10,082 nucleotides of DNA from a virus (lineage: Duplodnaviria > Heunggongvirae > Uroviricota > Caudoviricetes), in the IMG/VR virus record IMGVR_UViG_2534681736_000023, one strand, 5' to 3'. Below the pieces are notes generated by a model. The model was not told the DNA's origin and searched no databases. It worked only from the letters and a program-made list of their open reading frames with translations. Shown piece after piece: positions 3,713 through 3,977 of this stretch; the stretch's first letter is position 1; every line of letters starts with the position of its first letter. The position numbers and the translations under genes are program-made.

Positions 3713-3947
3713 CTAAAAAACGTCAACATGCAGAAAACTCGCTATATCCGGCAAAAATGGCATCGCGAATGAAGCATGCAACCGCGCCCGGACAAAATAC
3801 GGACTTCCGGAAATATGAAAAATCATCCATATCAACAGGATGCACGAAAAATGAGATTTCCGTCACTTCCGGAATTAACTTTTCCGTGGCATTCTTTATC
3901 TGTGTAGGTAAGGTCTCTTCACAATAATGACATAATCAACGCAGTTC

Positions 3948-3977
3948 ATGGGGGAAGTGATGGTCCCCCATCTTTTT
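3948..3977 (+). terminator. Rho-independent terminator (plus-strand orientation)
   Basis: An 8-bp stem ATGGGGGA (3948-3955) pairs with TCCCCCAT (3964-3971) around an 8-nt loop, followed by CTTTTTGTCTGTTATTT. No T-run follows on the opposite strand, so it is mainly a plus-strand terminator. Confidence 0.5.

What the first reader, a model, noticed from the sequence alone, without database searches (positions are those of the whole stretch)
3780..3977. Candidate prophage-encoded small RNA: orphan terminator, CA-rich tract and twin TTCCGGAA palindromes in the stf-dinI gap
The 375-bp gap 3713-4086 between convergent dinI-like and stf has no credible ORF. It contains a good plus-strand intrinsic terminator (3948-3977) 236 nt beyond the dinI stop, so either dinI has an unusually long 3'UTR or an independent short transcript ends here. 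Immediately 5' of the hairpin is an unstructured CA-rich tract CTTCACAATAATGACATAATCAAC (3917-3940), the arrangement typical of Hfq-dependent sRNAs (seed, hairpin, U-tail). Two copies of the palindrome ACTTCCGGAA (3803-3812 and 3865-3874, 62 bp apart) look like paired binding sites for a dimeric regulator upstream of a possible promoter (-35-like TTAACT 3875-3880). Prophage-end 'moron' positions are known to harbour regulatory sRNAs in pathogenic E. coli; I cannot assign this one to a named sRNA from memory.
Basis: inference. Interest (0 to 1): 0.6.

Follow-up and report, generated by a model that had tools for sequence, protein, structure and literature searches.

The report
Prophage terminator between two gene stumps
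The "empty" gap is the scarred junction of a prophage's accessory-gene end and tail-fibre end: two broken gene remnants flank an ordinary transcription terminator, which now ends the SOS-inducible dinI-like message. Nothing points to a small regulatory RNA.

Summary
The sequence features are real, but the small-RNA reading is not supported.

**Setting.** The window is E. coli yehS-btsR-btsS followed by the end of a lambdoid prophage inserted in yehV/mlrA.

**What the 374-bp dinI–stf gap contains:**
- the last 33 codons of a ykgJ-like gene (3717-3818, +), fused just after the dinI-like stop;
- the native ~130-nt ykgJ–tfa spacer (3819-3947);
- a plus-strand intrinsic terminator (stem 3948-3971, U-run 3973-3977);
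- the last ~20 codons of a DUF4376 tail-fibre-assembly gene (3983-4042, −).

**Evidence for the terminator.** Diverged relatives carry five different stems at this position. Each is followed by T5–T9 on the plus strand.

**Evidence against the small RNA.**
- Palindrome 1 is simply codons G-L-P-E-I plus the stop of the ykgJ stump.
- Palindrome 2 and the CA tract are among the least conserved segments.
- TTAACT has no −10 partner.
- Rfam finds nothing, and there is no similarity to AgvB, AsxR, EcOnc03 or EcsR2.
- Pairing with GcvB is no better than chance.

**Most likely function.** The terminator ends the LexA-controlled dinI-like mRNA, giving it a ~265-nt 3′UTR, and shields the tail operon from antisense read-in. 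A 3′UTR-derived sRNA cannot be excluded without expression data.

The parts
3398..3448 (+). Promoter-like hexamers (TTGACA-18-AAAAAT, 3398-3427) and LexA box CTGTATATAACCACAG (3433-3448) upstream of the dinI-like gene. This is the likely start of the transcript that ends at the terminator.
   Evidence: SOS regulation is inferred from the CTGT-N8-ACAG consensus (established knowledge); it was not tested.
3464..3712 (+). dinI-like gene (82 aa).
   Evidence: Pfam PF06183, E=1.6e-17. RefSeq annotates a DinI-like family protein in near-identical loci.
3717..3818 (+). C-terminal stump (33 codons plus stop) of a ykgJ-like (CxxCxxCC, PF03692) gene. It is a pseudogene left by a deletion that removed codons 1-~76.
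   Evidence: RefSeq pseudogene annotation. The translation [33 protein letters not shown] aligns with residues 77-109 of the intact prophage YkgJ-like protein. The intact homolog hits PF03692. The undeleted dinI–IS5–ykgJ order is seen in L118.
3803..3812 (+). ACTTCCGGAA copy 1. It lies in codons GGA CTT CCG GAA ATA TGA (G L P E I stop) of the ykgJ stump.
   Evidence: It is TTCCAGAA, TTCCCAAA or TTCCGAAA in diverged copies.
3818..3843 (-). Small hairpin CATCC/GGATG (3825-3843) followed on the minus strand by AUUUUUCA. It may be a weak minus-strand terminator next to the ykgJ stop. This is the best-conserved part of the spacer.
   Evidence: Fold at -5.9 kcal/mol. Conservation is 0.97. A different 5-bp stem (CTCTT/AAGAG) lies at the equivalent place in the diverged second copy. 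The hairpin is deleted in the ZH48/TOE17 class, so its function is uncertain.
3858..3874 (+). Small hairpin TTCCG-N7-CGGAA containing ACTTCCGGAA copy 2 (3865-3874).
   Evidence: It is not conserved in the KY171/2012EL/phStx1c, STEC1585 or ZH48/TOE17 classes, nor in the diverged second copy.
3892..3916 (.). Variable patch. It exists in at least three alleles that assort independently of their flanks, which marks it as a recombination mosaic.
   Evidence: 20 of 25 columns are variable and mean identity is 0.68.
3917..3947 (+). G-poor A/C/T tract just upstream of the terminator stem.
   Evidence: The K class has a 4-nt deletion and 7 or more substitutions here. Mean identity is 0.80. Predicted GcvB pairing is no better than shuffles or other windows.
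3948..3983 (+). Rho-independent terminator: stem 3948-3955/3964-3971, loop 3956-3963, tail C-UUUUU-GUCUG. It ends the dinI-like (ancestrally ykgJ-like) transcript and blocks antisense read-in to the tail-fibre genes.
   Evidence: Five non-identical stems occupy the same position in relatives, each followed by T5-T9 on the plus strand.
3983..4042 (-). C-terminal stump of a DUF4376 (tail-fibre-assembly-like) gene, stop TAA at 3985-3983. Degenerate remains with in-frame stops continue towards the stf stop at 4087.
   Evidence: KGLETLSSADEIQAYRGEK* aligns with KDLESLSSADEILAYRVGWAQE* of the intact gene. The intact genes are annotated and hit PF14301.
4087..6153 (-). Side tail fibre gene (stf), convergent with dinI-like.
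   Evidence: Pfam PF08400, collagen and Phage_fiber_2.

Best explanation
The gap is the convergent junction between the accessory-gene ('moron') end and the tail-fibre end of a lambdoid prophage integrated in yehV/mlrA.

**How it arose (inferred).** The ancestral order was att – dinI-like – ykgJ-like → spacer → terminator ← tfa (DUF4376) ← stf. In this prophage one deletion removed the first two-thirds of ykgJ, and another removed nearly all of tfa. What remains is two stumps around the native ~160-nt intergenic spacer.

**How it works (inferred).**
- Transcription from the LexA-controlled dinI-like promoter (~3430) runs through the ykgJ stump and spacer.
- It stops at ~3977-3982, which gives a ~545-nt mRNA with a ~265-nt 3'UTR.
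- The same hairpin keeps that transcription from running antisense into the late tail-fibre operon.
- The hairpin also lies at the 3' end of the minus-strand stf message.

**The other features.** The CA tract is the G-poor lead-in to the terminator. Palindrome 1 is ykgJ coding sequence. Palindrome 2 is an allele-specific repeat.

Shown: the anatomy, the homologies, and positional and structural conservation of the terminator. Inferred: the deletions that produced the stumps, actual termination, SOS control, and the insulating role.
For: **Context**
- yehS, btsR and btsS are identified by Pfam and RefSeq.
- The ykgJ stump is supported.
- The tfa stump is supported.
- The undeleted dinI–IS5–ykgJ–spacer–tfa order occurs in another yehV prophage.
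- An intact ykgJ followed by the same spacer and hairpin occurs at serX, potB and yodB prophages.

**Terminator**
- It is the best terminator-like site in the region and folds at -13.7 to -15.4 kcal/mol.
- At the same position, a few nt before the tfa stop, relatives carry different stems:
  - AGGGGCUG/CAGCCCCU + U7 (-15.6 kcal/mol, z -3.95);
  - CCGGGACU/GGUCCCGU + U7-9 (-11.9 kcal/mol);
  - CGGGGG/CCCCCG + U6 (-14 kcal/mol);
  - GGGAAA/UUUCCC + U5 in P-EibE.
- In every variant the U-run is on the plus strand.

**Conservation profile**
- Stems 1.00 and T-tail 0.97, against CA tract 0.80, palindrome 2 0.83 and the variable patch 0.68.

**Spread**
- 127 of 5,426 complete E. coli genomes match at ≥~85% identity and 271 at lower stringency, with up to 6 copies per genome, all chromosomal.
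- At least six different left-hand contexts are joined to the same spacer.

**LexA box**
- CTGTATATAACCACAG lies at 3433-3448.
Against: - No transcript data were available, so termination efficiency and the true 3' end are inferred.
- The U-run is only 5 long and is interrupted by G, so termination may be partial.
- The 23 viral contigs were retrieved with a pattern that fixes the stem. Stem invariance in that subset is therefore by construction. The argument rests on the BLAST-retrieved E. coli loci and on the non-identical stems.
- MAFFT/RNAalifold could not put the different stems in register. The compensatory argument is therefore positional, not column-by-column covariation.
- In loci where the genes to the left also run on the minus strand (phiSTEC1589-Stx1c, P-EibE) there is no adjacent plus-strand gene to terminate, yet the plus-strand polarity is kept.
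- In the main class an 11-bp alternative pairing (3860-3870 with 3953-3963) is almost iso-energetic with the terminator.
Confidence: 0.8

Rival explanations
1. A plus-strand Hfq-dependent sRNA ends at the 3948-3977 terminator. It would either be made from its own promoter downstream of the palindromes or be cut from the 3'UTR of the dinI-like/ykgJ-like mRNA. The A/C-rich tract 3917-3940 would serve as its seed.
For: - The architecture is compatible: an unstructured G-poor tract, then a hairpin, then a U-run.
- The last ~75 nt (3917-3990) are nearly invariant within the main class.
- Known prophage anti-sRNAs are similarly short (51-60 nt), with a variable CA-containing 5' part and a conserved terminator (PMC4104026).
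- 3'UTRs are a known reservoir of sRNAs (established knowledge).
Against: - No Rfam family matches.
- No promoter is found, and TTAACT lacks a -10. The only -10-like element, TGACATAAT at 3928-3936, would start transcription at ~3943 and give only the hairpin.
- The putative seed is less conserved than the terminator. It has a 4-nt indel in the K class and is unrecognisable in the ZH48/TOE17 and STEC1585 classes.
- Similarity to AgvB, AsxR and EcOnc03 is no better than shuffles.
- The GcvB duplex energy of -19.4 kcal/mol is matched by 14% of shuffles and 57% of other 31-nt windows.
- The U-tail has only 5 U. By established knowledge this is short for strong Hfq binding.
Confidence: 0.08
2. The relevant RNA is on the minus strand. 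The hairpin would mark the 3' end of the stf/late-operon message, or of an EcsR2-like sRNA derived from the degraded tail-fibre-assembly gene. This mirrors E. coli K-12, where the 166-nt sRNA EcsR2 lies between a tail-fibre remnant and the ykgJ stop and ends just after the shared hairpin.
For: - K-12 has the same gene order: dinI pseudogene – ykgJ – hairpin – tail-fibre remnant.
- EcsR2 maps to L013 2182-2347 on the tail-fibre strand and ends 7 nt from the ykgJ stop (PMC4350180; coordinate conversion by inference).
- EcsR2 is reported to derive from a degraded phage tail fibre gene (PMC8825220).
- The hairpin travels with the tfa 3' end even where ykgJ is absent (P-EibE and the L104 class).
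- The minus-strand fold is equally stable, at -14.2 kcal/mol.
Against: - On the minus strand the hairpin is followed by GAACUGCGUUGAUUAUG, which is not a U-tract. The non-identical stems in relatives all carry their U-run on the plus side only.
- There is no nucleotide or translated similarity between the K-12 EcsR2 region and the window.
- The EcsR2 promoter lies in K-12-specific DNA next to yagU (read).
- No minus-strand promoter was found between stf and the hairpin.
Confidence: 0.1
3. The two TTCCGGAA palindromes are paired operators for a dimeric DNA-binding regulator. Alternatively, together with CCGUCACUUCC, they form an RNA anti-terminator/anti-anti-terminator switch that gates the 3948-3977 terminator.
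For: - The 10-mer occurs twice, against 0.01 expected.
- 3860-3870 is complementary over 11 bp to 3953-3963, which covers the 5' stem plus the loop of the terminator.
- The full-length spacer MFE and centroid use that pairing.
- Forced-structure energies for the main class (terminator vs alternative pairing) are W -40.4 vs -38.2 and ST130 -31.8 vs -37.8 kcal/mol.
Against: - Copy 1 is the last codons of ykgJ, and its sequence follows the reading frame.
- Neither copy stays palindromic in the diverged classes.
- In the K class the terminator structure wins by 5-12 kcal/mol and the alternative helix drops to 9-10 pairs.
- Classes with other stems lack the complementarity although they keep CATCAC.
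- No regulator gene is nearby, and no plus-strand promoter sits downstream for an operator to control.
Confidence: 0.03

Closest known systems
Rho-independent terminators that bound accessory ('moron') genes in lambdoid prophages (Juhala et al. 2000, as cited in PMC4104026)
   Same: A G/C-rich stem plus U-run lies immediately downstream of an accessory gene at a module boundary. It is convergent with the structural (tail) operon, and its position is conserved while the stem sequence changes.
   Different: The accessory gene it originally served (ykgJ-like) has been decapitated here. The terminator now serves the upstream dinI-like gene through a 265-nt UTR made partly of pseudogene.
EcsR2, a 166-nt sRNA in the E. 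coli K-12 yagU–ykgJ intergenic region (PMC4350180; its origin from a degraded phage tail fibre gene is stated in PMC8825220)
   Same: The genomic architecture is the same: ykgJ → hairpin ← tail-fibre-gene remnant, with a dinI-like remnant upstream of ykgJ.
   Different: No sequence similarity is detectable. Its promoter lies in K-12-specific flanking DNA.
Prophage anti-sRNAs AgvB, AsxR and EcOnc03 of E. coli O157:H7 (PMC4104026)
   Same: The layout would be similar: a short, single terminator hairpin preceded by a short A/C-containing variable region, encoded in lambdoid prophages.
   Different: Those genes lie at the PR' moron site downstream of Q, in convergent sRNA pairs. Their conserved 3' module GUAUCUCAUGC..UUGCCCGAACCCAYUCGGGC is absent from the window. 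Alignment scores are no better than shuffles. They have mapped primary 5' ends, and no promoter is seen here.
attB-in-PP_2, the secondary attachment site carried by prophages and homologous to the K-12 ykgJ/ecpE intergenic region (Nakamura et al. 2021, PMC8112680)
   Same: It belongs to the same captured ykgJ module at the tail-fibre/effector end of STEC prophages, including prophages at mlrA.
   Different: That site is homologous to the ykgJ/ecpE intergenic region, which in K-12 lies upstream of ykgJ (gene order). This window has lost the 5' part of ykgJ. No nucleotide match to the K-12 ykgJ/ecpE region was found.

Membership tests
Rho-independent (intrinsic) terminator | G/C-rich stem of about 5-12 bp with a short loop | tested here: met
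   8 bp with 5 G-C pairs and an 8-nt loop, -13.7 to -15.4 kcal/mol.
Rho-independent (intrinsic) terminator | U-rich tract immediately 3' of the stem on the transcribed strand | tested here: met
   C-UUUUU-GUCUGUUAUU on the plus strand. The minus strand has GAACUGCGUUGAUU, which is not a U-tract.
Rho-independent (intrinsic) terminator | Lies downstream of a co-oriented gene, and the structure is kept in homologs despite sequence change | tested here: met
   It lies downstream of ykgJ-like or dinI-like genes. Five different stems are each followed by T5-T9. Column-wise covariation could not be scored.
Rho-independent (intrinsic) terminator | Transcripts actually end there | not testable with these tools
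   Needs Term-seq, 3'-RACE or a reporter assay.
Hfq-dependent trans-acting sRNA | Own promoter, or a defined processing site that generates a discrete 5' end | tested here: not met
   No sigma-70-like site lies in 3713-3947. TTAACT has no -10 at 16-18 nt (direct reading). The region that would hold the -10 is the variable patch. RNase E processing is not testable.
Hfq-dependent trans-acting sRNA | Seed region at least as conserved as the rest of the RNA | tested here: not met
   The CA tract has mean identity 0.80 and a 4-nt indel, against 1.00 for the stems. It is unrecognisable in the ZH48/TOE17 and STEC1585 classes.
Hfq-dependent trans-acting sRNA | Terminator with a long (≥6-7) U tail for binding to the Hfq proximal face | tested here: inconclusive
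   Five consecutive U, then G. The threshold comes from established knowledge, not from a test here.
Hfq-dependent trans-acting sRNA | Detectable stable transcript and Hfq association | not testable with these tools
   No expression data exist for strains carrying this sequence. From the hit counts it seems to be absent from O157:H7 Sakai-type genomes. That is an inference and was not checked directly.
Any curated RNA family (Rfam 15) | Covariance-model match at or near the gathering score | tested here: not met
   There were 0 hits at gathering thresholds over the whole window. At E<10 only snoRNA, miRNA and lncRNA noise at 13.8-20.6 bits appeared, well below their gathering scores.
AgvB/AsxR anti-sRNA group | Conserved ~42-nt 3' module and location at the PR' moron site | tested here: not met
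   The pattern is absent even with 3 mismatches allowed. Alignment is no better than shuffles. The location here is the tail-fibre/att end, whereas those sRNAs lie at PR'.
EcsR2 | Sequence homology to the K-12 yagU–ykgJ intergenic RNA | tested here: not met
   blastn and tblastx of the K-12 intergenic region against the window gave only chance-level hits.
EcsR2 | Position between the ykgJ 3' end and a tail-fibre-gene remnant | tested here: met
YkgJ / CxxCxxCC (PF03692) gene | Intact cysteine-cluster domain | tested here: not met
   Only residues 77-109 remain. The stump has no Pfam hit, whereas intact homologs hit PF03692. It is therefore a pseudogene stump.
attB-in-PP_2 secondary attachment site | 96-bp sequence about 81% identical to the K-12 ykgJ/ecpE intergenic region | tested here: not met
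   No nucleotide match was found in the window. The site is described in PMC8112680.

The most novel reading that the evidence does not exclude
On SOS induction, the last ~60-130 nt of the dinI-like/ykgJ-like 3'UTR (the A/C-rich tract plus the terminator) would be released as a stable, Hfq-bound 3'UTR-derived RNA carried by many STEC prophages. It would act in trans, for example as a sponge for a GU-rich core sRNA. The amount of read-through versus release would be gated by the alternative pairing of 3860-3870 with the terminator's 5' half.
Probability: 0.06. Interest if true: 0.5.

Novelty: already known. Interest (0 to 1): 0.12.

Why it matters
As it stands, this is mainly a useful negative. 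An apparently empty, sRNA-like gap at a prophage end is explained by two pseudogene stumps around an ordinary terminator.

It shows how mosaic recombination in STEC prophages gives an SOS-inducible dinI-like gene a long composite 3'UTR. It also shows that terminators persist at the boundary between accessory genes and the tail operon while their stems are replaced.

A modest by-product concerns E. coli K-12. The K-12 ykgJ neighbourhood (dinI pseudogene – ykgJ – hairpin – tail-fibre remnant/EcsR2) has the same order as this prophage end. That bears on where EcsR2 and the prophage 'attB-in-PP_2' sequence came from.

If the low-probability sRNA reading were true, it would add an SOS-linked, prophage-borne riboregulator found in about 2-5% of complete E. 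coli genomes.

Tried and rejected
- **Rfam.** Scans at gathering thresholds and at E<10 found nothing relevant.
- **Known prophage anti-sRNAs.** Sequences of AgvB, AsxR and EcOnc03 were taken from the supplement of PMC4104026. They are absent from the window and align no better than shuffles.
- **EcsR2 and the K-12 yagU–ykgJ region.** There is no similarity to the gap. An apparent resemblance of 'ACAATAAT…hairpin' seen by eye is not detectable by blastn.
- **attB-in-PP_2.** It is not present in the window.
- **Chromosomal ykgJ loci.** In 80 Enterobacterales species, none carries the prophage spacer downstream of ykgJ. The spacer is therefore phage DNA, not a captured ykgJ 3'UTR.
- **Promoter search.** No sigma-70-like site lies in the gap. 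Hand inspection of TTAACT, GTGGCA and TGACATAAT gave no usable promoter for an RNA with a seed.
- **GcvB-sponge idea.** The duplex energy is not better than shuffles or other windows.
- **Conserved small ORF on the minus strand.** The ORF starting at ATG 3949 has 17 codons here and 38 aa in phage 1720a-02. Its frame is broken by the 4-nt indel in the K class, so it is not conserved.
- **RNAalifold on the seven hairpin variants.** MAFFT did not put the stems in register, so the result is uninformative.
- **Antiterminator model.** The alternative helix is competitive in the main class but not in the K class, and it is absent with the other stems.
- **Twin-palindrome long-range stem.** The plus-strand fold has z = -0.78 and the minus-strand fold z = -1.96, and the pairing is not conserved.
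- **attP arm for this prophage.** Rejected because the same spacer occurs in prophages at yehV, yecD/E, serX, potB and yodB, and lies more than 560 nt from the yehV junction.
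Full report
**Setting.** The window is E. coli chromosome. yehS (DUF1456), btsR and btsS lie on the minus strand at 31-2964 (Pfam; RefSeq names in near-identical genomes). They are followed by the end of a lambdoid prophage inserted in yehV/mlrA. 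The prophage part holds:
- a dinI-like gene (3464-3712, +; PF06183);
- a side tail fibre gene (4087-6153, −);
- lom (6305-6967, −);
- gpJ (6997-10071, −).

A promoter-like TTGACA-18-AAAAAT (3398-3427) and a LexA-box match CTGTATATAACCACAG (3433-3448) precede dinI.

**The observation.**
- The hairpin ATGGGGGA/TCCCCCAT (3948-3971) with C-TTTTT-G after it is the strongest terminator-like site in 3000-4500. It folds at -13.7 to -15.4 kcal/mol.
- ACTTCCGGAA occurs twice, at 3803 and 3865, against 0.01 expected.
- The tract 3917-3940 is G-poor.
- TTAACT is at 3875-3880.

**What the gap is made of.** RefSeq annotates the equivalent of window 3717-3818 as a 'YkgJ family cysteine cluster protein' pseudogene missing its N-terminus.
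- Its translation, [33 protein letters not shown], aligns with residues 77-109 of the intact 109-aa prophage protein. That protein carries PF03692.
- Intact copies sit in the same place in prophages at serX, potB and yodB.
- Another yehV prophage still has dinI – IS5 – full-length ykgJ – spacer – tfa. The window's arrangement is therefore a deletion derivative.
- On the right, the minus strand of 3983-4042 reads KGLETLSSADEIQAYRGEK*. This is the C-terminus of the DUF4376 tail-fibre-assembly-like protein that is intact in relatives (KDLESLSSADEILAYRVGWAQE*). Further left on that strand the frame is broken by stops.

The 374-bp 'gap' is therefore a ykgJ stump, the native ykgJ–tfa spacer with its terminator, and a tfa stump.

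**The terminator.** In relatives with intact genes, the hairpin lies about 130 nt after the ykgJ stop and 5 nt before the convergent tfa stop. The informative comparison is with diverged versions of the spacer. At the same position, preceded by TTCNTKG, there are five different stems:

| Locus | Stem | T-run (plus strand) | Energy (kcal/mol) |
|---|---|---|---|
| window | ATGGGGGA/TCCCCCAT | T5 | -13.7 to -15.4 |
| P-EibE | GGGAAA/TTTCCC | T5 | -9.7 |
| STEC1585 | AGGGGCTG/CAGCCCCT | T7 | -15.6 (z -3.95) |
| ZH48/TOE17 | CCGGGACT/GGTCCCGT | T7-T9 | -11.9 |
| 2012EL class, second copy | CGGGGG/CCCCCG | T6 | -14.0 |

All carry the T-run on the plus strand. None has a U-tract directly after the stem on the minus strand. 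This positional and structural persistence with changing sequence argues for a functional plus-strand intrinsic terminator.

Two caveats apply. The 23 viral contigs were fetched with a pattern that fixes the window-type stem, so their stem invariance is by construction. MAFFT/RNAalifold could not register the different stems, so there is no column-wise covariation count.

**The features proposed as sRNA parts.**
- Palindrome 1 is the codons GGA CTT CCG GAA ATA TGA of the ykgJ stump. In diverged copies it reads TTCCAGAA, TTCCCAAA or TTCCGAAA.
- Palindrome 2 is present only in the main allele class. It is replaced in the KY171/2012EL/phStx1c, STEC1585 and ZH48/TOE17 classes and in the diverged second copy.
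- Per-segment conservation over 27 distinct sequences:

| Segment | Mean pairwise identity |
|---|---|
| terminator stems | 1.00 |
| T-tail | 0.97 |
| 3819-3843 | 0.97 |
| palindrome 2 | 0.83 |
| CA tract (also has a 4-nt indel) | 0.80 |
| patch 3892-3916 | 0.68 |

- No sigma-70-like promoter is found in the gap. The positions 16-18 nt after TTAACT read TATCTG/ATCTGT/TCTGTG and fall in the variable patch.
- The only -10-like element, TGACATAAT (3928-3936), would start transcription at ~3943 and leave no seed.
- Rfam gives nothing.
- The prophage anti-sRNAs AgvB, AsxR and EcOnc03 lie at the PR' moron site. Their sequences, taken from the paper's supplement, are neither present nor alignable above shuffles.
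- Predicted pairing of the tract with GcvB is unremarkable.

**Mosaicism.** At least six different left-hand contexts are joined to the spacer:
- full dinI plus the ykgJ stump;
- intact ykgJ;
- two other ykgJ or dinI truncations;
- unrelated DNA joined at ~3803;
- unrelated DNA joined at ~3845.

The patch 3892-3916 exists in alleles that assort independently of their flanks. The spacer is thus attached to the tail-fibre end and is a frequent recombination joint. It occurs in 127 (near) to 271 (distant) of 5,426 complete E. coli genomes, with up to six copies per genome. None of 80 chromosomal ykgJ loci from other Enterobacterales has it.

**Relation to known elements.** Nakamura et al. described prophage sequences homologous to the K-12 ykgJ/ecpE region, including a secondary attachment site, attB-in-PP_2 (PMC8112680).
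- In K-12 that intergenic region lies upstream of ykgJ, and it is not in this window.
- In K-12 the region downstream of ykgJ holds the 166-nt sRNA EcsR2 (PMC4350180). EcsR2 is reported to derive from a degraded phage tail fibre gene (PMC8825220).
- After converting the published coordinates, EcsR2 lies on the tail-fibre strand and ends just past a hairpin, 7 nt from the ykgJ stop.
- The K-12 ykgJ/ecpE region itself contains a frameshifted dinI-like pseudogene. K-12 therefore has the same order as this prophage end: dinI' – ykgJ – hairpin – tail-fibre'.
- This makes EcsR2 the closest named RNA by context.

**Mechanism proposed.** Transcription from the LexA-controlled dinI-like promoter runs through the ykgJ stump and spacer and terminates at ~3977-3982. 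This gives a ~545-nt mRNA with a ~265-nt 3'UTR. The terminator also prevents antisense read-in to the tail operon. The anatomy, the homology and the conservation are shown. Termination, SOS control and insulation are inferred. Confidence is 0.8.

**Residual possibilities.**
- A processed 3'UTR-derived plus-strand sRNA: about 0.06-0.08.
- A minus-strand 3' end or EcsR2-like RNA: about 0.1.
- An operator or antiterminator role for the palindrome region: about 0.03. An 11-bp pairing of 3860-3870 with 3953-3963 competes with the terminator in the main class. It does not compete in the K class, and it is absent with the other stems.

**Verdict.** The feature is an ordinary intrinsic terminator in a mosaic prophage junction flanked by two pseudogene stumps. 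Interest is low.

Noticed in passing
window 3398-3448: The dinI-like gene has a promoter-like TTGACA-18-AAAAAT followed 6 nt later by a LexA-box match, CTGTATATAACCACAG. The prophage gene is therefore probably SOS-regulated.
   Followed up: partly
L013 (E. coli K-12 NC_000913.3) 2684-2995, minus strand: The K-12 ykgJ/ecpE intergenic region is the chromosomal homolog of the prophage attB-in-PP_2 of Nakamura et al. It contains a frameshifted dinI-like pseudogene (…RLNDVEAIVNITCNDGL… / …SVQETRKGIRQPANEWFNH). K-12 thus has dinI'–ykgJ–hairpin–tail-fibre remnant (EcsR2), the same order as this prophage end.
   Followed up: partly
window 3860-3870 and 3953-3963: There is an 11-bp complementarity (CCGTCACTTCC / GGAAGTGATGG) between the palindrome-2 region and the 5' stem plus loop of the terminator. 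It is nearly iso-energetic with the terminator in the main allele class, but not in the K class.
   Followed up: yes
L008 1599-1760 (K-class spacer; equivalent to window 3819-3985): The diverged spacer allele folds far better than shuffles (-49.9 kcal/mol, z = -5.0). The cause is an A/T-rich inverted repeat, AGTATTTATT-N5-AGTAAATACT, in the place of the window's variable patch. This is unexplained.
   Followed up: no
L010 1231-1249 and 1503-1521 (also L006, L012, L095, L100, L104): The unit 'ykgJ 3' end + spacer' occurs twice, about 272 nt apart. Between the copies lies a G5/C5 hairpin plus T6 on the plus strand. On the minus strand there is a strong AAGGAG-N7-ATG start for a 15-codon ORF, MEKLMKTFSATLYGE.
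   Followed up: partly
window 3914-3926 and 4082-4094: A 13-nt direct repeat is present: TCTCTTCACAATA / TCTCTTCACGATA. The second copy spans the stf stop codon. It may be microhomology left by the deletion that removed most of the tfa gene.
   Followed up: no
window 3897-3949, minus strand: A short ORF starting at ATG 3949 has 17 codons here (MNCVDYVIIVKRPYLHR). It is 38 aa and annotated as a hypothetical protein in phage 1720a-02. Its frame is broken by a 4-nt indel in the K class, so it is probably not a gene.
   Followed up: yes
L005 (phage P-EibE, AF151676) 3-36; equivalent to window ~3737-3770, minus strand: The depositors annotated a stem_loop inside what is here the ykgJ stump (GCATGC..GCGATGC followed by CATTTTTG on the minus strand). 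It is a possible weak minus-strand terminator downstream of the eib gene cluster.
   Followed up: no
L007 (phage 1720a-02, KF030445) 194-1601: In this phage the integrase gene lies immediately upstream of, and co-oriented with, the dinI-like gene. Window homology begins exactly at the int stop, which corresponds to window 3398. There the hairpin is the first strong terminator downstream of int–dinI.
   Followed up: partly
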